Of a DNA stretch of 16,099 nucleotides, positions 1,369 to 16,099 are shown piece by piece; position 1 is the stretch's first letter, and each line of letters starts with the position of its first letter. Origin of the DNA: a virus (lineage: Duplodnaviria; Heunggongvirae; Uroviricota; Caudoviricetes); the IMG/VR virus record IMGVR_UViG_2563366820_000001, positions 1 to 16,099 of that record, one strand, 5' to 3'. The position numbers and the translations under genes are program-made. Under the pieces are notes generated by a model. It was not told where the DNA came from. It searched no databases and worked only from the letters and a program-made list of their open reading frames with translations.

Positions 1369-1444
1369 GCCGATATAGCTCAGTTGGTAGAGCAGCGCAT
1401 TCGTAATGCGAAGGTCGTAGGTTCGACTCCTATTATCGGCACCA
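1369..1444 (+). tRNA. thrW: tRNA-Thr (anticodon CGU)
   Basis: 76-nt sequence GCCGATATAGCTCAGTTGGTAGAGCAGCGCATTCGTAATGCGAAGGTCGTAGGTTCGACTCCTATTATCGGCACCA; 7-bp acceptor stem GCCGATA/TATCGGC, anticodon loop TTCGTAA, T-arm GGTTCGACTCC, 3' CCA. Confidence 0.95.
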
Positions 1445-1610: not shown

Positions 1611-2825
1611 GTGAAACTCAATGCCCGTCAAATAGACACTGCCAAGCCAAAAGAGAAGGCTTACAAGCTGGCTGATGGTGGTGGTCTGTATCTCTTGGTA
1701 AAACCTAGTGGAGGAAAATATTGGCGCTTCAAGTATCGTGTAGCTGGTAAAGAGAAGCTGTTAGCACTAGGTGTGTATCCTGAAGTTACCTTGGCTGATG
1801 CTCGTGCAAAACGTGAAGAAGCTAAAAGGGGTATCGCTGGGGGTATCGATCCGATGGAAGCGAAACGAGAGGAAAAGATTGCCCGGGAAACGCAGTTAAA
1901 CAACACCTTCAAAGATATTGCCCTTGAGTGGCACAGCAGCAAATTAAAAAAATGGTCTGCTGGTTATGCTTCAGACATCCTCGAAGCCTTCAACAAAGAT
2001 GTGTTCCCTTACATTGGCAAAAAACCAATCGCCGAAATCAAACCACTTGAACTGCTGAATGTGCTGCGGCGCATCGAGGGGCGCGGTGCTACCGAAAAAG
2101 CCAAAAAAGTGAGGCAGCGATGCGGGGAAGTTTTCCGCTATGCAATTGTCACTGGACGTGCTGAGTATAACCCTGCACCGGATCTCACCAGCGCGATGCA
2201 AGGTCATGAATCTAATCATTATCCTTTCCTCACAGCCAAAGAATTACCTGATTTTTTCAAGGCATTGTCCAGTTACTCAGGAAGTGCATTGGTTGTTATG
2301 GCGGCTCGTCTACTGATTATCACCGGTTTGCGGACTGGCGAACTGCGCGGTGCATTATGGGATGAAATCGATCTCAACAAGGCTATCTGGGAGATACCAG
2401 CTTCACGGATGAAAATGCGTCGCCCTCATGTGGTGCCTTTGTCTGAGCAGGCTCTTTCGCTTATTGGGCAGATTAAAGAACTAACTGGCAATTATCCGCT
2501 TATGTTTCCCGGCCGTAATGATCCAAGGAAAACAATGAGCGAGGCTAGCATAAACCAAGTATTTAAACGCATCGGCTATAACGGAAAGGTTACTGGTCAT
2601 GGCTTCCGGCACACTATGAGCACCATTTTGCATGAGCAGGGCTATAACACCGCGTGGATAGAGACACAGCTTGCGCACGTCGATAAAAACTCAATTCGTG
2701 GCACATACAACCATGCGCAATATCTGGATGGGCGGCGGGAAATGCTTCAGTGGTACGCTGATTATATGGATTCGCTCGAGCATGGCGGAAATGTGGTGCA
2801 TGGTGAGTTCGGAAAATGCGGGTGA
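1611..2825 (+). CDS. int: P4-family tyrosine site-specific integrase
   Basis: 404-aa ORF with GTG start preceded by GGAGG (1597..1601); N-terminus MKLNARQIDTAKPKEKAYKLADGGGLYLLVKP typical of P4-like integrases; C-terminal catalytic region with conserved R (ITGLRTGELR), HGFRHT and Y (SIRGTYNHAQY); location directly downstream of a tRNA. Confidence 0.9.
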   Translation: MKLNARQIDTAKPKEKAYKLADGGGLYLLVKPSGGKYWRFKYRVAGKEKLLALGVYPEVTLADARAKREEAKRGIAGGIDPMEAKREEKIARETQLNNTFKDIALEWHSSKLKKWSAGYASDILEAFNKDVFPYIGKKPIAEIKPLELLNVLRRIEGRGATEKAKKVRQRCGEVFRYAIVTGRAEYNPAPDLTSAMQGHESNHYPFLTAKELPDFFKALSSYSGSALVVMAARLLIITGLRTGELRGALWDEIDLNKAIWEIPASRMKMRRPHVVPLSEQALSLIGQIKELTGNYPLMFPGRNDPRKTMSEASINQVFKRIGYNGKVTGHGFRHTMSTILHEQGYNTAWIETQLAHVDKNSIRGTYNHAQYLDGRREMLQWYADYMDSLEHGGNVVHGEFGKCG

Positions 2826-2896
2826 CTGGTTGAGTATACAGTAGTAGACTTTGAGCGATTAAGAAAAGGCTGTGTCTAGGGTCGCTCCCGAAAATC

Positions 2897-2951
2897 CGCA
2901 CACCTCTGCGGACTGGCACAGCCACTACGGTAGAGGGCGCAGAGGTGTGCG
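2897..2951 (+). promoter_or_regulatory. Perfect 14-bp inverted repeat CGCACACCTCTGCG (2897..2910) / CGCAGAGGTGTGCG (2938..2951), 27-nt spacer; second arm contains the AGAGGTG Shine-Dalgarno of the downstream ORF
   Basis: Reverse-complement identity verified base by base; the ATG at 2953 follows arm 2 directly. Confidence 0.5.
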
Positions 2952-2952
2952 T

Positions 2953-3723
2953 ATGGTTGATATTCATGCCGAATTAAATGAATATAAAAAAGAGTTTATT
3001 TATTTACGTGATTTTCTTGATGATGTATTTAAAGTTGTTGATGCTAATATTTCAGAAGTCATTACCTGGATACTCAAGAGAATAAATACAGTAAATCCAG
3101 GTATTACCCTGTACACAGTAAATTCATTAAATGAGGTGGAACTTTATTCTTCGGATCCGTTTGAGTGGAGATCTGATTTTAACTTTCTTTATGCAAAACT
3201 GGATACGGTTAGGGAGCGTGGTTGTTTACCTTGTGAGAGGGATGAGAGTGGTTTTCTGGTATCTGGTTATTGGGAAGATGCCGAATTTGAGGCAATGGGA
3301 TTCAGAAGAAATGAAATTTTCGAAATTTTCCCAGAAATCCTTGACGGGTTAATGAATCTGGAATGTGCTGACTCTTCTGAAAATAACGAGGCGCAAGGAA
3401 GCAATATTGAACATAAAGAGTTGCGTACAGATGATGATTTTTTATCCCGAATTGCAATGCTGGAAAAAGAAAATGAATCGTTAAGGGAGCGGGTAAATCA
3501 GTTAGAAAAGGAGCGCCCGATTTTGCTAAGGGCGTATCGTGATGATGACCCATTGTATCTGGCTATCGATATTAGAAACAGAGAGTGGGCCAATTACGAC
3601 CCAGAGAATGATCGCGCAACCAGGGGAAACCAGGGCGCGATTACTACTGAACTTGAAAAACGAGGTTTTACCTCCCGACAGGCCGCATCTATTGAGCTTG
3701 TCGCCTGTCCTATCAAACGATGA
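2953..3723 (+). CDS. Hypothetical protein (256 aa from ATG 2953; ORF track allows GTG at 2872), AT-rich N-terminal half, coiled-coil-like segment IAMLEKENESLRERVNQLEKER
   Basis: Long ORF with SD AGAGGTG 6 nt upstream of ATG 2953; codon composition markedly more AT-rich than the flanking int and alpA; no family recognised. Confidence 0.55.
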   Translation: MVDIHAELNEYKKEFIYLRDFLDDVFKVVDANISEVITWILKRINTVNPGITLYTVNSLNEVELYSSDPFEWRSDFNFLYAKLDTVRERGCLPCERDESGFLVSGYWEDAEFEAMGFRRNEIFEIFPEILDGLMNLECADSSENNEAQGSNIEHKELRTDDDFLSRIAMLEKENESLRERVNQLEKERPILLRAYRDDDPLYLAIDIRNREWANYDPENDRATRGNQGAITTELEKRGFTSRQAASIELVACPIKR

Positions 3724-3762
3724 AGCCTTACCCTAGTGATATCTCATGTTTTGTTCGCGTCT

Positions 3763-3841
3763 CACCCTAAGGGTAATCAGACCTCACCCTTAGGGTATTT
3801 TTGTATGCTTTCCCATCAATTTTACTATTACCCTTAGGGTA
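3763..3841 (+). promoter_or_regulatory. Three copies of a palindromic motif ACCCT(A/T)AGGGTA (3763..3776, 3785..3797, 3830..3841) upstream of alpA; candidate operator array
   Basis: Motifs read directly; ACCCTAAGGGT and ACCCTTAGGGT are reverse complements of each other. Confidence 0.5.
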
Positions 3842-3943
3842 AAAATATTCCCGATTACCATTAGGCATGAGGGTATGAAAATATTCGTTATTTCTGTGCC
3901 ATGATTACCTCGTCAAATTGAGTAGACGTTATGAGGTAAATAT

Positions 3944-4141
3944 ATGTCAAATACGCTTATTCGTTTAACGGAAGTTCAGCGTAGAACTGGATATAGCAAG
4001 GCATGGATTTATCGCCTTATGGGGCAAGGTAAATTTCCTGCATCAGTTAAAATTGGCTCGCGAGCGATTGCTTTCGTTGAGAGTGAAATTGACGAGTGGA
4101 TTAATCAGCGTATTGCGGAATCACGCGGAACAGCTACCTGA
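3944..4141 (+). CDS. alpA: AlpA-family phage transcriptional regulator / excisionase-like HTH protein
   Basis: 65-aa product MSNTLIRLTEVQRRTGYSKAWIYRLMGQGKFPASVKIGSRAIAFVESEIDEWINQR matches the AlpA pattern (L+EV...G.S+..IY.L...G.FP..VK.G.R...F.E.EI.EWI). Confidence 0.8.
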   Translation: MSNTLIRLTEVQRRTGYSKAWIYRLMGQGKFPASVKIGSRAIAFVESEIDEWINQRIAESRGTAT

Positions 4142-4219
4142 TTAAATGGCTACGGGGCCAGAAGTCCCAGCTATCCACCAGCAAATAAAAAGTAACTTAA
4201 TTCGATAGCAGGAGTTTTT

Positions 4220-5020
4220 ATGAAACTGCGAAAAACGCCCGTACAGGGGCAGGGATTCGTTCGGCCTGAAAACCAGAGCCAACAAAATTTCGGCGAAATT
4301 ATCCCGGTTATTTCCGGCGTTATTGGCGGGCGTGAAACCAATATTGTTAGCGCCAGAGCGTTGCATAAGGCGCTGGGTGTGAAGCGTGATTTCACAACCT
4401 GGATTAAAGGACGCATTGATGAGTACGGATTTAAAAAGGGCGTGGATTTTGAATTCGTAGAAAATTTGACCTCCCCCAATCCGGTGAGCGCAAAATCTCG
4501 CCAACGTGTAGAGCACGACTACCTGAGCACTATCAACATGGCGAAAGAACTGGCGATGGTCGAACGCACCGAACAGGGCCGCGCCGTTCGTCAGTACTTC
4601 ATCAAATGCGAGGAAGAGCTACACAAGGTTGCGCCTGTACGTTCCGCAGCGTTACGCCGGGAACTGAAAGCCCGTATCACAGTTGCCAGCTACTTTAAGC
4701 CAATGTGTGCCGCGCTGGAGGCGTACCGGGCTGAACTGGGTAAAAACACGCTCCAGCACCATTACACCACGGAAGCCAATATGCTGGCGCGTATCGTGCT
4801 GGGTGGCATGACTGCAAAACAGTGGGCGCAGGCGAACGGCATTACAGGCGAACCACGCGACCACATGAGCACGTTGCAGCTTGAGCACCTTTCTTACCTT
4901 GAGCAGAGCAATATCACGCTGATTGAGTTAGGCCAGGACTACCACCAGCGGAAGGCTGAATTAATTCGTCTTTCGCAGCGTTGGTTAGCCCGTCGCATGG
5001 AGGAAAACAGCCATGTGTAA
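4220..5020 (+). CDS. Phage antirepressor-like protein (AntA/AntB-type N-terminal domain)
   Basis: 266-aa ORF with AGGAG SD; segment ARALHKALGVKRDFTTWIKGRIDEYGFKKGVDFEF resembles the AntA/AntB antirepressor domain signature; called by eye, not by search. Confidence 0.55.
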   Translation: MKLRKTPVQGQGFVRPENQSQQNFGEIIPVISGVIGGRETNIVSARALHKALGVKRDFTTWIKGRIDEYGFKKGVDFEFVENLTSPNPVSAKSRQRVEHDYLSTINMAKELAMVERTEQGRAVRQYFIKCEEELHKVAPVRSAALRRELKARITVASYFKPMCAALEAYRAELGKNTLQHHYTTEANMLARIVLGGMTAKQWAQANGITGEPRDHMSTLQLEHLSYLEQSNITLIELGQDYHQRKAELIRLSQRWLARRMEENSHV

Positions 5021-6344: not shown

Positions 6345-6659
6345 ATGAAAAAGAAAAATTCTGGCTTTACTGCCAGCGGTCTCTCTCGGCCTGAAATTCG
6401 CCCCGGCGATATTTTCCGGGATAAATACGGCAGTCAGATAACGGTAAAAACGGTGAGTGCTTATCGTGTGACCTATATCCGCGAAGGGTATGCGCATCCC
6501 TGCGTGTCGTCACATATGCGCTTTGAAAGGGAATTCATCCTTGTAAGTAAAGCGCCACCAGCAGAATTAAGCGACATCGACAAAATCATGAGCGTCACGG
6601 GCGCGGAACGCATCAGGACAGTACGTGAAATTATTCGTGAGCGGGGAGGTAAGAAGTGA
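6345..6659 (+). CDS. Hypothetical protein (104 aa)
   Basis: ORF with ATG 4 nt after the previous stop; stop overlaps the primase GTG start (GTGA). Confidence 0.5.
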   Translation: MKKKNSGFTASGLSRPEIRPGDIFRDKYGSQITVKTVSAYRVTYIREGYAHPCVSSHMRFEREFILVSKAPPAELSDIDKIMSVTGAERIRTVREIIRERGGKK

Positions 6660-13464: not shown

Positions 13465-14046
13465 ATGAGTTTTTTTAGTCTTTATGGGAAAGAACTATTT
13501 TCTTTTTTTATAGCGATATTAACATGGATACTGAATAACAGATTTAAAAGCAAGGCAAAGTTATCCTATGGTTATCAGCATGGATTTACTTTTCTTCTCA
13601 ATGAACCCTTACGGAATGCCAATGGTGAGATAATATCTAATTCACAGTTGGTGTATACACGATCTATTATTCTTGTTAATGAAGGGCGAGAAAGTGCTAC
13701 TAATATATCATTGGTTTTTAACTATAAGCCAATGCATATTAATTTTTGGCCTGTCCACCATTTTGAAGAAAATATTGAGCAGGATGGTCGCTATATTATC
13801 AAGTTTGAAAGTCTTGCACCTGGTGAGTCTATTCAATGTGAAATGTTATCAATAAATAGAGAAGTTCCAAGTATTCTATCGATAAGATCTAAAGAGTGTG
13901 TGGCTGAGCCAGTGAATATCGTAATGCAAAAATCGATTAGTAATATTGCCCTACGTTGCTATCAATTATTAATACTTCTTGGAACTGGTACATTAACATA
14001 TTTAATTATCGTTATTCTGCAATGGTTAGTCACTAAAACGGGATAA
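13465..14046 (+). CDS. Hypothetical membrane protein (193 aa) with one N-terminal and one C-terminal predicted TM helix; AT-rich cargo gene
   Basis: SD GAAGGAAG 6 nt upstream of ATG 13465 (track start is GTG 13462); hydrophobic segments FSFFIAILTWILNN and LLILLGTGTLTYLIIVILQWLV; AT-rich codon usage unlike the backbone. Confidence 0.6.
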   Translation: MSFFSLYGKELFSFFIAILTWILNNRFKSKAKLSYGYQHGFTFLLNEPLRNANGEIISNSQLVYTRSIILVNEGRESATNISLVFNYKPMHINFWPVHHFEENIEQDGRYIIKFESLAPGESIQCEMLSINREVPSILSIRSKECVAEPVNIVMQKSISNIALRCYQLLILLGTGTLTYLIIVILQWLVTKTG

Positions 14047-14074
14047 TCCATTGTATTGAACTTATTAATTGGAT

Positions 14075-14275
14075 ATGAGTGCTGATAGGAAAGCTATGAC
14101 CATCACCGAAGCCGATTTGCTGGAGATGATCCGCAGCATTGCCGGAATCAAACAACCAGCAAGCAAAATTAACAGGTGTTCAGCGCCTGTTTCCGTTGTG
14201 CTGCAACAGGAACGCCACCAGCAGGATGATGTGAGGCCGTATCAGTGGAAGAAACCGGACAGGCCGCGACGGTGA
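14075..14275 (+). CDS. Short ORF (66 aa from ATG 14075; track uses TTG 14069), possibly a gene remnant
   Basis: GC-richer island between two AT-rich genes; no SD; translation is protein-like (MTITEADLLEMIRSIAGIKQPA) but unassignable. Confidence 0.25.
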   Translation: MSADRKAMTITEADLLEMIRSIAGIKQPASKINRCSAPVSVVLQQERHQQDDVRPYQWKKPDRPRR

Positions 14276-14606
14276 GCGGAGCGTTACGGTAAGGCTACAG
14301 CCAAGCCAAACATTAAGCCTAAGGGTAAGGTTTTTTGTTGCAGGTGGCATTAATTTGGATGTTGATTTAAGGAGCATTTTTACTGAGACGGCCTGTTCGG
14401 GGTAACTTTTTTGTATGCCATTCACTTGTATGAGAGCTGTACTACGAAATAGGTTGGCATGGTGGGGAGAGCATTCTGTACTGTTATTGAATAACACTAT
14501 CGTTTTTTATTCCTTTTGGTTATTAAGTGGTGTGCGTTAAGACATGGTTTTCTTTATGTTTTTCATGTATATATTGCTTTTTAACTCAATAAGGAAACAC
14601 TGATAA

Positions 14607-15500
14607 ATGGCAAGACCAAAAAAATTAACTTATGGGGCGGTGAATATAACAATGCATCCCCACTCGCCAGAAAAATATGTAGAATTGTTCAGAATGGCAA
14701 GAAAAAACGCGAGAAATGTTAATTTGAGGGGGGACTCTTTCGCGACTTTATCACACTTTTATCCTTACAGGAAAGATCAGGTAGTTAGTGAACCTTTTGA
14801 AGGGGAAATTCTAAAGTATACAGATATTGATGTTGATGGAGATTGGTTCGATATTGTAAAGAAAGACATTGCCTCAGATGAGCAAAAGGAAAGGATAAGT
14901 ATACCTGAGAATTTAAAACCAAATGTGGCTCGATTCTCTTTTGTTTTTCTACCTGCCAGCCATCTTTTAGTTTATGAGATGCAGGACAAAGGTCGGCATC
15001 TTACATCAAAACAAATAGAAAATTTTCTGAATGGAATATTTTCTCATGAGAGAATTATAGAGAAGTTTGGGAAGATTAATGTTACAATATTAACCGAGCC
15101 AGATAACGTAGAACGTATGCTTTCTTTAAAAGGCATTACGTGTATAAATATGGTTACTCGACGTCCTAACCCAGATGATCTCGCTTCTGCAGAAAGTATT
15201 ATGCAAAAGCGTTTCAAACGTATTGGCGTTATTGAAGAAGATAAAACATATAAATCTGAGCGTGGTCAGGAAATTAAACCTGATAGTGAGTTAAAGCAGG
15301 ATGCTCTTATTGCTTCGAGAAATGGCGAAGTTAGCATACGTAGGATTAATGAGGCGGGATTAGTTGAGGTTCATGCCTCAAGCGATTTACCACTTCAAAG
15401 GGTTGAATCATATGATTCTGACGTAACATCAGTTACTGAGCTATTGTTATTAAGAGCAAAATCTTTAGCAGATGAGTTTAAGAGGCTTCTGAGAAAGTAA
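14607..15500 (+). CDS. Hypothetical soluble protein (297 aa), first gene of a translationally coupled two-gene cargo cassette; candidate defense component
   Basis: ATG with AAGGAAA SD; AT-rich; no Walker A, HTH or other motif I can recognise; acidic cluster YTDIDVDGDWFDIVKKD; stop overlaps the next start (TAATG). Confidence 0.75.
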   Translation: MARPKKLTYGAVNITMHPHSPEKYVELFRMARKNARNVNLRGDSFATLSHFYPYRKDQVVSEPFEGEILKYTDIDVDGDWFDIVKKDIASDEQKERISIPENLKPNVARFSFVFLPASHLLVYEMQDKGRHLTSKQIENFLNGIFSHERIIEKFGKINVTILTEPDNVERMLSLKGITCINMVTRRPNPDDLASAESIMQKRFKRIGVIEEDKTYKSERGQEIKPDSELKQDALIASRNGEVSIRRINEAGLVEVHASSDLPLQRVESYDSDVTSVTELLLLRAKSLADEFKRLLRK

Positions 15501-16099
15501 TGAGTAAAGTAAAAGAATCAACCAGTGCAATGGCTAGATACTGGAAGATCTATGGTGGCGCTGGGGCTGTATTTAAAAGTCGCTATTTTTGGTGTGCTTT
15601 TTTTATGACAGTGATTCTTTATCCATCTTGGTCTCATCAGGGGTGGTGGAATGATATTCTGTCGTTAATGCCGAACCTTTTGGGTTTTTCACTGGGTGGT
15701 TTTGCTATGTGGATTGCTATTGGAGATGAGGCTTTCAAAAAAATAATAACTGGAGATGAAGAAAGTGAAAATGGAGAGGTAGAATATTCTCCTTATATGT
15801 CTGTGAATGCAACCTTTGTTCATTTTATATTATTGCAGTTGTTAACTATAATAATGGCCTTGGTCACCAAGGCCTATAGTAGCATTCTCATAAATAACGC
15901 TTTTATGTATTATTATTTAGGTGTTGCTTACAGGTATGTACTGTTAACATTCAGCTTCTTTGCATACTTTATATTTATTTACTCAGTATTCTCTGCGTTA
16001 GCTGCCGTTTTTGCTATATTTCGTGTTTCTAGTTGGTATAATACTTTTATGACCTTACGAAACAAACAAGATAACGCTAAAAATAATAAGGAGGAATAA
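15500..16099 (+). CDS. Hypothetical integral membrane protein (199 aa, about 4 predicted TM helices); candidate membrane effector
   Basis: Hydrophobic segments YFWCAFFMTVILYPSW, LLGFSLGGFAMWIAIG, FVHFILLQLLTIIMALV, YVLLTFSFFAYFIFIYSVFSALAAVFAIF; ATG overlaps the upstream stop; TAA at 16097..16099 is the last codon of the window. Confidence 0.75.
   Translation: MSKVKESTSAMARYWKIYGGAGAVFKSRYFWCAFFMTVILYPSWSHQGWWNDILSLMPNLLGFSLGGFAMWIAIGDEAFKKIITGDEESENGEVEYSPYMSVNATFVHFILLQLLTIIMALVTKAYSSILINNAFMYYYLGVAYRYVLLTFSFFAYFIFIYSVFSALAAVFAIFRVSSWYNTFMTLRNKQDNAKNNKEE

What the first reader, a model, noticed from the sequence alone, without database searches (positions are those of the whole stretch)
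2953..3723. AT-rich orphan gene wedged between int and alpA
The 256-aa product has no motif I can recognise, a markedly AT-rich 5' half, a coiled-coil-like segment, and sits between two conserved backbone genes. The int-proximal position is a known location for variable accessory genes in chromosomal islands. It could be a single-gene defense, anti-defense or helper-interference factor.
Basis: inference. Interest (0 to 1): 0.5.

Follow-up and report, generated by a model that had tools for sequence, protein, structure and literature searches.

The report
Candidate regulator gene guarding satellite alpA switch
The "orphan" gene is real and belongs to an uncharacterised family that always sits just upstream of the alpA master-switch gene of phage-satellite islands, next to its own array of DNA repeats. 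It therefore most likely encodes the DNA-binding regulator of that switch, not a defence cargo gene.

Summary
**Observation: confirmed.** Window 2953-3723 is a real 256-aa gene. It has 37-40% GC and a four-heptad leucine zipper, matches no known family or fold, and lies between int and alpA of a tRNA-Thr (thrW) satellite island.

**Not an orphan.** About 110 sequence clusters exist in Enterobacterales and Pasteurellaceae. In every locus sampled, the homolog lies 70-330 bp upstream of an AlpA-family gene. This holds in three Pasteurellaceae loci where int sits at the other end of the island.

**Architecture.**
- The N-terminal part is variable and swappable. In the window it is a fused copy of a gene that is separate elsewhere.
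- It is followed by a leucine zipper.
- The C-terminal 69 residues form a conserved, undescribed three-helix domain.

**Repeats.** The gene-to-alpA spacer carries phased palindromes, ACCCTNAGGGT: 3 in the window and 1-4 in 20 of 23 related spacers. That is about 190 times the background rate.

**What the repeats track.** They follow the C-terminal domain. They do not follow AlpA or the N-terminal domain.

**Best reading (inferred, about 0.55).** The protein is a dimeric DNA-binding regulator of the alpA promoter, probably a repressor whose variable N-terminal domain receives a signal.

**Upstream leader.** The Rfam int-alpA RNA lies directly upstream, at 2869-2936. In related islands it precedes nearly every gene in this slot.

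**Defence or anti-defence cargo is not supported,** although the slot's content does vary between related islands.

The parts
1369..1444 (+). tRNA-Thr(CGU), thrW; the island's left attachment site downstream of proA
   Evidence: ARAGORN, Rfam tRNA, and the same proA-tRNA-int context in RefSeq genomes
1611..2825 (+). Tyrosine integrase of the satellite island
   Evidence: Pfam Arm-DNA-bind_3, Phage_int_M and Phage_integrase. It is 99.75% identical in protein to the O104:H4 island integrase.
2869..2936 (+). int-alpA RNA motif (Rfam RF02996); here it is the 5' leader of the slot gene and ends 16 nt before ATG 2953
   Evidence: 48.4 bits against a gathering score of 35.8. In 13 related loci the motif ends 14-20 nt before the first slot gene, whatever that gene encodes. 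It is absent from L025 and L033, which have an empty slot, and from L023.
2897..2951 (+). Alternative 14-bp hairpin. Its 5' arm is part of the int-alpA RNA, and its 3' arm covers the Shine-Dalgarno sequence and the bases up to the ATG of the slot gene. A possible translational switch (inferred).
   Evidence: Inverted repeat of 17 nt, 94% complementary. It is the stem in the MFE fold; the whole 106-nt fragment folds at -39.4 kcal/mol, z -1.8. It is only partly preserved in L001 and L002.
2953..3723 (+). The gene in question ('X'): a 256-aa acidic protein (pI 4.6)
2953..3375 (+). X residues 1-141, the variable N-terminal globular domain. Residues 1-94 are homologous to a separate ~100-120-aa gene (ORF-A) that precedes short X in other islands. 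Residues 106-125 carry the W..F..YGFRRxEL motif shared with short X.
   Evidence: AF2 pLDDT 80-95. hhalign of the ORF-A profile against X 1-141 gives probability 86.6%, E 4.5e-6. Two-gene arrangements are seen. dN/dS is 1.1 for residues 31-105. The same N-domain is fused to a different C-terminus in P0133 and P0142.
3430..3513 (+). X residues 160-187: leucine zipper (L170, L177, L184, continuing to L191), preceded by an acidic disordered linker (141-160)
   Evidence: Nearly invariant L170, E173, L177, L184. Single long helix 160-187 in AF2, with pLDDT <50 for 141-160. Sub-threshold bZIP hits.
3514..3720 (+). X residues 188-256: the conserved C-terminal three-helix domain (DPLxLAIxIRNxxW...TRGNQ...IELVACPIKR). 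It is the only non-acidic part of the protein (pI 8.1) and the proposed DNA-binding domain.
   Evidence: Invariant and near-invariant columns. Helices 200-213, 224-236 and 241-251. Net charge. dN/dS 0.09. No Pfam hit in 89 relatives.
3730..3874 (.). Operator-like array. Perfect palindromes ACCCTNAGGGT lie at 3764-3774, 3786-3796 and 3830-3840 (spacing 22 and 44 bp). There is a degenerate half-site at 3730-3734 and a wide-spaced dyad ACCAT-N8-AGGGT at 3857-3874. By my reading of the sequence, the wide dyad abuts the likely -35 region of the alpA promoter.
   Evidence: 3 perfect sites against 0.24 expected by chance for the <=1-mismatch pattern; 0 of 200 shuffles reach the observed count. The array and its 32/22-23/43-44 bp spacing are conserved across genera. 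It is enriched about 190-fold over background and absent from spacers without X.
3907..3937 (+). Hairpin in the alpA 5' UTR whose 3' arm contains the alpA Shine-Dalgarno sequence
   Evidence: 83% of cells paired in 17 distinct sequences, against 33-50% when slid. 3 pairs have changes on both sides. Covariation is modest, and RNAalifold on its own predicted nothing.
3944..4141 (+). alpA, the AlpA-family regulator. AlpA is the master activator of Gram-negative PICIs in the literature.
   Evidence: Pfam Phage_AlpA, 2.4e-19. Role from PMC6092414 and PMC11773190.

Best explanation
The gene encodes a modular transcription regulator of the satellite's alpA switch.

**Shown.**
- The protein has three parts: a variable N-terminal globular domain, a leucine zipper, and a conserved C-terminal three-helix domain of an undescribed family.
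- The gene is always directly upstream of an alpA gene.
- The spacer between them carries an array of dyad-symmetric 11-mers (ACCCTNAGGGT). These are spaced 22, 32 and 44 bp apart, which puts them on one face of the helix.
- The identity of these repeats follows the C-terminal domain of the slot protein. It does not follow AlpA or the N-terminal domain.

**Inferred.**
- The zipper makes a parallel dimer, so two C-terminal domains can read the two half-sites of each dyad.
- Several dimers occupy the array cooperatively and set the activity of the alpA promoter.
- The fast-evolving N-terminal domain is the input. It would bind a helper-phage or host protein, releasing the DNA and allowing alpA, and hence excision and replication, to fire.

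The gene, its int-alpA RNA leader and its operators behave as one exchangeable cassette between int and alpA.
For: 1. **Linkage.** Homologs sit 70-330 bp upstream of an AlpA gene in all sampled loci: L001-L013, L019, L022 (tblastn), L014, L020, and L027-L032, L034-L039. In Pasteurellaceae loci L019, L020 and L022, int is at the far end of the island and inverted.

2. **Co-occurrence in E. coli.** 171 of 5426 genomes carry X-like DNA and 164 carry DNA matching the X-alpA spacer plus this alpA.

3. **Repeats in the window.** 3 perfect ACCCTNAGGGT, against 0.24 expected for the <=1-mismatch pattern.

4. **Repeats across loci.**
   - 31 hits (<=1 mismatch) in 3.3 kb of X-alpA spacers, against 2 in 226 kb elsewhere in those loci.
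   - The generalised dyad AC[CT][CA]TNA[GT][GA]GT occurs at 10.3 per kb in X spacers, against 0.05 per kb in background.
   - It is found in 20 of 23 X loci and 0 of 7 non-X loci, Fisher p 6e-5. The loci are not independent.

5. **Which protein the repeats follow.**
   - L023, L025, L026, L040 and L041 have AlpA with the same recognition-helix sequence. L023 AlpA is 97% identical overall. They have a different slot protein or none, and none has the dyad.
   - L040 and L041 have X's N-domain fused to a different C-domain. Their spacers carry CACTTCCAA direct repeats instead.
   - L006, L008, L009, L010, L011 and L013 have unrelated or missing N-domains with the X C-domain, and they keep the dyad.

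6. **Geometry kept while half-sites drift with the C-domain.** ACCCT in Enterobacterales, ACTAT in some Pasteurellaceae (perfect in the Macca element), and the hybrid ACTATCAGGGT in Photorhabdus.

7. **Allele swapping.** Between near-identical flanks (int dS 0.04, alpA dS 0.07), X has dS 0.59, and dN/dS is 1.1 in residues 31-105. This is the pattern of a swapped specificity allele.

8. **Context in the literature.** alpA is off without a helper phage, is helper-induced and is autoactivated. [quoted passage not shown]
Against: - The whole protein is very acidic (net -21). The proposed DNA-binding domain is only weakly basic, at +1.
- The perfect dyads lie upstream of the -35 region, not over the core promoter. 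An activator role is therefore as compatible with their position as a repressor role.
- Co-variation could partly reflect physical linkage within a recombining cassette.
- Three Pasteurellaceae loci lack a dyad that fits the generalised pattern.
- Islands without X, such as EcCIMP1, still show helper-specific induction of alpA. X is therefore not a universal requirement.
Confidence: 0.55

Rival explanations
1. X is a partner of AlpA or of RNA polymerase: an anti-activator or co-activator that works through protein-protein contact. Its conserved C-terminal domain binds a conserved protein surface, and some other factor (host, helper phage or AlpA) binds the palindromes.
For: The protein is strongly acidic overall, pI 4.6, as many protein-binding antagonists are. 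It has no recognisable DNA-binding fold. The C-terminal half of AlpA is highly conserved across all these islands. The X-alpA linkage is strict.
Against: The palindromes disappear whenever the X C-domain is replaced, although AlpA keeps the same recognition helix. The remote C-domain variant in L023 pairs with a 97%-identical AlpA but with different repeats. A zipper dimer matches dyad-symmetric sites.
Confidence: 0.15
2. X is accessory cargo: a single-gene defence, anti-defence or helper-interference factor that occupies a variable int-proximal slot.
For: Slot content differs between islands with the same integrase. The N-domain evolves fast, with dN/dS about 1. The gene is AT-rich. One distant relative has a weak hit to Effector-associated domain 9.
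Against: There is no PADLOC hit and no effector-like domain. The gene is linked to alpA, not to int. It has a dedicated repeat array in the alpA promoter region. Recognisable defence cargo in sister islands lies at the opposite end. No match was found in phages or plasmids.
Confidence: 0.12
3. X is an architectural or recombination-directionality cofactor. It binds phased sites to bend DNA for integrase- and AlpA-mediated excision, and does not control transcription.
For: It lies between int and an AlpA/Vis-family protein, a family that includes excisionases. The phased sites lie on one face of the helix.
Against: The sites are about 2.3 kb from the attachment site at the tRNA, far outside any attP arm. 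In three Pasteurellaceae loci the gene stays with alpA while int is elsewhere. There is no homology to Xis, Vis or IHF-like proteins.
Confidence: 0.07

Closest known systems
SaPI Stl / Gram-positive PICI master repressors (Rpr)
   Same: Both are satellite-encoded genes next to int, and both control the switch that starts excision and replication. Both are modular, with a conserved DNA-binding part and a highly variable part (in Stl, this part binds helper-phage proteins). Both have many alleles exchanged between otherwise similar islands (background from PMC6092414; allele pattern here).
   Different: In published descriptions Stl carries a conventional helix-turn-helix DNA-binding domain (from my own knowledge). 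It is transcribed in the same direction as int and divergently from the genes it represses. X is co-directional with its presumed target. It has a C-terminal domain with no Pfam or fold match, preceded by a leucine zipper. Neither repression nor helper sensing has been shown for X.
Lambdoid CI-type immunity repressors with multipartite operators
   Same: Dimers read dyad-symmetric sites arranged in arrays with centre-to-centre spacings of about 22-24 bp. Repressor and operators co-vary as an 'immunity' cassette between otherwise homologous genomes (general knowledge).
   Different: There is no sequence or fold relationship. No RecA-cleavage domain was detected. The perfect sites lie upstream of the promoter core instead of over it. 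Dimerisation would be by a zipper.
bZIP transcription factors (one RefSeq record names a homolog this way, H25)
   Same: A four-heptad leucine zipper. Weak Pfam bZIP_1 and bZIP_2 alignments over residues 165-189.
   Different: Scores of 18.7 and 16.7 bits fall below the gathering thresholds of 27.6 and 22.3. The segment N-terminal to the zipper is acidic and predicted disordered instead of basic. The conserved candidate DNA-binding part lies C-terminal to the zipper.
Bro-N / KilA-N domain-swapping network of phage and satellite regulators ('Bro zone' of Gram-negative PICIs, PMC10111431)
   Same: N- and C-terminal modules are shuffled extensively among proteins of mobile elements. The X N-domain occurs with at least 2 different C-domains, and the X C-domain with many N-domains.
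   Different: X and its relatives have no Bro-N, KilA-N, ANT or Rha Pfam hit. X lies in the 'integration zone' upstream of alpA, not in the Bro zone downstream.
Rfam RF02996 int-alpA RNA
   Same: The element at 2869-2936 is a member of this family (48.4 bits).
   Different: Rfam lists it as a gene/sRNA. Here and in 13 related loci it ends 14-20 nt before the start codon of whatever gene fills the slot, and it is missing when the slot is empty. This points to a cis-acting leader.

Membership tests
bZIP transcription factor (PF00170 / PF07716) | Score at or above the Pfam gathering threshold | tested here: not met
   18.7 bits against 27.6, and 16.7 against 22.3
bZIP transcription factor (PF00170 / PF07716) | Basic DNA-contact region immediately N-terminal to the zipper | tested here: not met
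   Residues 141-160 have net charge -3 and pLDDT <50. The hits align only to the zipper part of the profile.
bZIP transcription factor (PF00170 / PF07716) | Heptad leucine zipper | tested here: met
   L170, L177, L184 and L191; the first three are nearly invariant. A single helix spans 160-187.
Satellite master repressor (SaPI Stl-like, functional class) | Recognisable HTH (Xre/CI-type) DNA-binding domain | tested here: not met
   No HTH family in Pfam or NCBIfam for X or for 89 relatives. No fold match.
Satellite master repressor (SaPI Stl-like, functional class) | Cognate operator sites in the promoter region of the island's activation module | tested here: inconclusive
   The repeat array co-varies with the C-domain, but binding has not been shown.
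Satellite master repressor (SaPI Stl-like, functional class) | Repression is relieved by binding of a helper-phage protein | not testable with these tools
   Needs reporter assays and interaction assays.
Known anti-phage defence systems (PADLOC-DB 2.0) | Match to a defence-protein HMM | tested here: not met
   0 families at E<=1 for both the 256-aa and the 283-aa versions.
Excisionase / recombination directionality factor (AlpA, Vis, Xis; PF05930, HTH_17) | Match to the family model | tested here: not met
   No hit for X. The neighbouring gene at 3944-4141 is the AlpA member.
Rfam RF02996 int-alpA RNA (applies to 2869-2936, not to the protein) | Covariance-model score at or above the gathering threshold | tested here: met
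   48.4 bits against 35.8, full-length model match 1-71.
Bro-N / KilA-N network proteins | Presence of a Bro-N, KilA-N, ANT, Rha or related Pfam module | tested here: not met
   No such hits in X or its relatives. The AntA protein is the separate gene at 4220-5020.

The most novel reading that the evidence does not exclude
The slot cassette is the missing helper-sensing master switch of a large clade of Gram-negative phage-inducible islands. The cassette consists of the int-alpA RNA leader, ORF-A and X (fused in this window), and the dyad operators.

On this reading, X dimers hold the alpA promoter shut through a new type of DNA-binding domain. The ORF-A-type N-domain is the sensor. In the unfused versions this domain ends in a copy of the SSB C-terminal tip, PMDFDDDIPF. 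It would read either a helper-phage protein or the state of the host SSB interaction network during phage replication, and would release alpA.

Exchanging cassettes would then retarget an island to a different helper or signal.
Probability: 0.2. Interest if true: 0.8.

Novelty: new variant of a known kind. Interest (0 to 1): 0.62.

Why it matters
AlpA is the activator that launches excision, replication and transfer of Gram-negative phage-inducible chromosomal islands. It is not known what keeps alpA silent or how a helper phage turns it on. [quoted passage not shown]

This gene family is uncharacterised. It is fixed immediately upstream of alpA with its own co-varying operator array, and its input domain is modular and fast-evolving. 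That makes it a concrete, testable candidate for that control point in the clade that carries it: about 3% of complete E. coli genomes, plus Salmonella, Citrobacter, Proteus, Serratia, Yersinia, Pectobacterium and Pasteurellaceae.

Three further points follow:
- It would define a new DNA-binding domain family.
- It gives a functional context to the orphan Rfam motif int-alpA RNA, as the leader of the slot gene.
- It shows that the int-alpA interval is an exchangeable regulatory cassette, not a cargo site. This matters when annotating defence hotspots in satellites.

Tried and rejected
**Searches that gave nothing informative for X**
- Pfam, PHROGs, PADLOC and NCBIfam: only sub-threshold coiled-coil hits.
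- Pfam on 89 distant relatives and on other slot proteins: only coiled-coil noise, and DUF6387 for the L026 protein.
- Profile search of PDB sequences: best E 0.047, a designed coiled coil.
- Foldseek of the AF2 model against PDB and BFVD: no match at E <= 0.001; best E 0.32 and 0.19.
- The afdb50 library was not available.
- tblastn against 50,697 phage records and 72,556 plasmids: no match.
- Consensus sigma-70 promoter scan of 2700-4300: none found. Promoter positions are therefore only my reading of conserved blocks.
- RNAalifold on the alpA 5' UTR predicted no structure. A hand-specified hairpin got only modest support.
- Literature searches found no description of a gene between int and alpA. 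The one exception is EcCIMP1_002, which is a different, small ORF in an island that lacks X.

**Ideas rejected**
- The upstream GTG 2872 as the start codon. The amino-acid conservation of that extension in L005 and L013 is explained by the conserved int-alpA RNA.
- AlpA as the binder of ACCCTNAGGGT. Five islands have the same AlpA recognition helix but lack the motif.
- The dyads as integrase arm sites. They are too far from the attachment site.
Full report
**1. What is in the window**

The window runs from the end of proA through tRNA-Thr(CGU) (1369-1444) into an integrated island. In order, the island carries:
- a tyrosine integrase (1611-2825);
- the gene in question (2953-3723);
- alpA (3944-4141);
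- an AntA-family gene;
- several small ORFs;
- a D5_N/DUF5906 primase (6656-8407);
- ProQ/FinO-like and PerC-like genes;
- head-related fragments;
- AT-rich genes at the 3' end.

This is the layout of the Gram-negative phage-inducible chromosomal islands described in PMC6092414, PMC10111431 and PMC11773190. The attachment site is the same one used by the experimentally studied island EcCIMP1.

**2.

ATG 2953 to the stop at 3723 encodes 256 residues and has a good Shine-Dalgarno sequence. RefSeq uses the same start in a 99%-identical copy. GC is 0.37-0.40 over most of the gene, against 0.46-0.49 in int. The coiled coil is a textbook zipper with L170, L177, L184 and L191. Nothing in Pfam, NCBIfam, PADLOC or PHROGs identifies the protein.

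The gene is real:
- 75 homologs in one search and 110 clusters in 1.84 billion representatives.
- A confident AF2 model, pLDDT 80.
- Purifying selection on the C-terminal part, dN/dS 0.09.

**3. Anatomy of the protein**

Alignments and the model give four parts:
- Residues 1-141 form a globular alpha/beta domain that varies between alleles.
- Residues 141-160 are an acidic, disordered linker.
- Residues 160-187 are the zipper.
- Residues 188-256 are a three-helix domain. It is by far the most conserved part of the family: DPLxLAIxIRNxxW, TRGNQ, and a terminal IELVACPIKR.

The protein is very acidic (pI 4.6). The C-terminal domain is the only weakly basic part.

The family is modular:
- The C-domain and zipper occur behind many unrelated N-termini, or almost alone in 64-104-aa forms.
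- The window's N-domain also occurs fused to a different C-terminal domain, in P0133, P0134, P0137, P0142 and P0153.

**4. The window's gene is a fusion**

In Proteus, Serratia, Kluyvera, Pantoea, Raoultella and Salmonella islands the slot holds two genes. The first is a roughly 100-120-aa ORF-A. The second follows 15-25 bp later and is a roughly 150-aa 'short X' that begins at the W..F..YGFRRxEL motif.

A profile of ORF-A aligns to residues 1-94 of the window protein with 86.6% probability, E 4.5e-6. Both share the start motif M-x-D-I...EFISLRE.

**5. Linkage is to alpA, not to int**

In every locus I sampled, the homolog ends 70-330 bp before an AlpA-family gene. The sample covers:
- E. coli, Kluyvera, Pantoea, Raoultella, Symbiopectobacterium, Photorhabdus, Xenorhabdus, Cedecea, Sodalis and Atlantibacter;
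- Proteus, Serratia, Salmonella and Enterobacter at other attachment sites;
- four Pasteurellaceae lineages, where the downstream ORFs are PF05930 members.

In the Pasteurellaceae islands L019, L020 and L022, int lies inverted at the other end, yet the gene stays in front of alpA.

In complete E. coli genomes, 171 carry X-like DNA and 164 carry DNA matching the X-alpA spacer plus this alpA. No copy was found in phage or plasmid records.

**6. A dedicated repeat array**

The 220-bp spacer contains three perfect palindromes, ACCCTNAGGGT, at 3764, 3786 and 3830. Chance would give 0.24 hits for the <=1-mismatch pattern, and none of 200 shuffles reached the observed count. There is also a degenerate copy near 3730 and a wide-spaced dyad at 3857-3874.

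The array is conserved across genera. Its spacings recur at 32, 22-23 and 43-44 bp, which are whole helical turns.

Counts:
- 31 hits in 3.3 kb of such spacers, against 2 in 226 kb of the surrounding loci.
- With half-site variants allowed, 10.3 per kb against 0.05 per kb.

**7. Which protein do the repeats follow?**

Natural recombinants give a fairly clean answer.

- *Same AlpA, different slot, repeats gone.* L023, L025, L026, L040 and L041 encode AlpA proteins with the same recognition-helix sequence as the window. L023 differs at only two N-terminal residues. Their slots hold a remote relative, nothing, a DUF6387 protein, or the X N-domain on another C-domain. None of their spacers has the dyad.
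- *Same N-domain, different C-domain, different repeats.* L040 and L041 carry four or five CACTTCCAA direct repeats instead. L024 carries two ACCGCAATTGCGGT palindromes. L023 carries other inverted repeats.
- *Same C-domain, different N-domain, repeats kept.* Loci with unrelated or missing N-domains but the X C-domain (L006, L008-L011, L013) keep the 5-1-5 dyad.
- *Half-sites drift but geometry stays.* The Pasteurellaceae bacterium Macca element has ACTATGATAGT, and three other Pasteurellaceae loci have looser versions. Photorhabdus has the hybrid ACTATCAGGGT.

The simplest reading is that the C-terminal domain reads these sites and that the zipper supplies the two-fold symmetry. This is inference from co-variation. 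It is not a binding assay, and the loci are not phylogenetically independent.

**8. Evolutionary behaviour**

Against the O104:H4 island, int and alpA are almost identical (dS 0.04 and 0.07). X has dS 0.59. Synonymous sites are saturated in the C-domain, and dN/dS is about 1.1 in residues 31-105. The allele has therefore been replaced by recombination between conserved flanks, and its N-domain is under relaxed or diversifying selection. A specificity determinant would behave this way.

About 500 E. coli genomes have most of this integrase gene, but only about 170 have X.

**9. Mechanism proposed**

Published work shows three things for Gram-negative PICIs:
- alpA is silent without a helper phage.
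- alpA is switched on specifically by helper induction and then activates itself.
- No repressor has been identified.

I propose that, in the clade carrying it, X dimers occupy the phased dyads and set alpA promoter activity, most likely by repressing it. The variable N-domain, or the separate ORF-A, would receive the releasing signal.

The points against this:
- No known DNA-binding fold.
- An acidic protein.
- Perfect sites that lie upstream of the promoter core, not over it.
- Helper-dependent alpA induction in EcCIMP1, which lacks X.

I put about 0.55 on 'sequence-specific regulator of the alpA promoter'. I put clearly less on the repressor-plus-helper-sensor version.

**10. The leader**

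Rfam's int-alpA RNA (RF02996) matches 2869-2936 at 48.4 bits, above its threshold.

In 13 related loci the motif ends 14-20 nt before the first slot gene, whichever gene that is: ORF-A, long X, DUF6387, the L024 type, or the N-domain with the alternative C-domain. It is absent from the two islands with an empty slot, and also from L023. It therefore behaves as the 5' leader of the slot gene.

In the window, part of the motif can instead pair with the Shine-Dalgarno region of X in a 14-bp stem. This suggests translational control, but the stem is only partly conserved.

**11. Verdict**

The defence/anti-defence reading is not supported, while the 'variable slot' idea is partly right.

What is there is an uncharacterised, modular, probably DNA-binding regulator. 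It forms an exchangeable cassette with an RNA leader and an operator array in front of the satellite's master activator. It is a new variant of a known kind of system, a mobile-element regulatory switch, built on an undescribed domain.

Noticed in passing
window 2869-2936 (+); L003 5567-5635, L024 2941-3009, L026 4776-4843, L040 2417-2485 and others: Rfam int-alpA RNA (RF02996, listed as an sRNA gene) always ends 14-20 nt before the start codon of the first gene in the int-alpA slot, whatever that gene encodes. It is missing from L025 and L033, which have an empty slot, and from L023. It looks like a cis-acting leader of the slot gene.
   Followed up: partly
L003 5651-5971, L004 5633-5953, L027 4634-4975, L030 4632-4985, L034 3108-3479: In the two-gene version of the slot, the small ORF-A ends in PMDFDDDIPF (variants PMDFDFDIPF, PMDFDDIDIPF, or just ...IPF). 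DFDDDIPF is the C-terminal tip of E. coli SSB, which mediates its interactions with partner proteins (PMC3936761). The fused window protein has lost this tail. This could be mimicry of the SSB tail, or a tether to short X.
   Followed up: partly
window 2897-2910 / 2938-2951: A 14-bp stem pairs part of the int-alpA RNA with the Shine-Dalgarno sequence and the bases up to the start codon of the slot gene. It is an alternative to the Rfam fold, so it could act as a translational on/off switch. It carries mismatches in L001 and L002.
   Followed up: partly
window 3907-3914 / 3930-3937: A hairpin in the alpA 5' UTR sequesters the alpA Shine-Dalgarno sequence. It is present in nearly all alpA genes of this class regardless of slot type: 83% paired, with a few compensatory changes (for example CACCTT/AAGGTG in L023). 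Statistical support is modest.
   Followed up: partly
L024 3782-3895; L040 3275-3476; L041 2508-2747; L026 5740-5936: Other slot cassettes carry their own, different repeat sets in front of alpA: ACCGCAATTGCGGT x2 in L024, CACTTCCAA x4-5 in L040 and L041, and a long inverted repeat in L026. Each slot protein type seems to come with cognate sites.
   Followed up: partly
window 13462-16099: AT-rich ORFs at the 3' end (GC 0.32-0.40; 194 aa, 297 aa, and a membrane-like ORF of at least 199 aa that runs off the window) have no PADLOC or NCBIfam match. Sister islands carry SIR2 (L001) or AAA ATPase + DUF4435 (L002) at this position, so these are the more likely defence-cargo candidates.
   Followed up: no
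window whole; L003, L005, L013, L025, L027, L033, L034, L038: Many related islands carry the P4-type immunity RNAs (Rfam C4 and isrK) inside their ash/icd region. The window gave no such hit even at E<=1.
   Followed up: no
L014-L018, L021 (Pasteurellaceae bacterium Macca): One genome carries at least six copies of an element with an identical X-alpA junction, on different contigs. This is unusual multiplicity for a satellite.
   Followed up: no
window 11195-11788 and 11853-12524: Two adjacent ORFs match different parts of one 545-residue PHROG (phrog_6216), in swapped order: profile positions 402-544, then 115-328. The second also weakly resembles head maturation proteases.
   Followed up: no
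H25, NZ_CP115821.1: One RefSeq record names a homolog 'bZIP transcription factor'. The match involves the zipper only and falls below the Pfam thresholds, so the name is misleading.
   Followed up: yes
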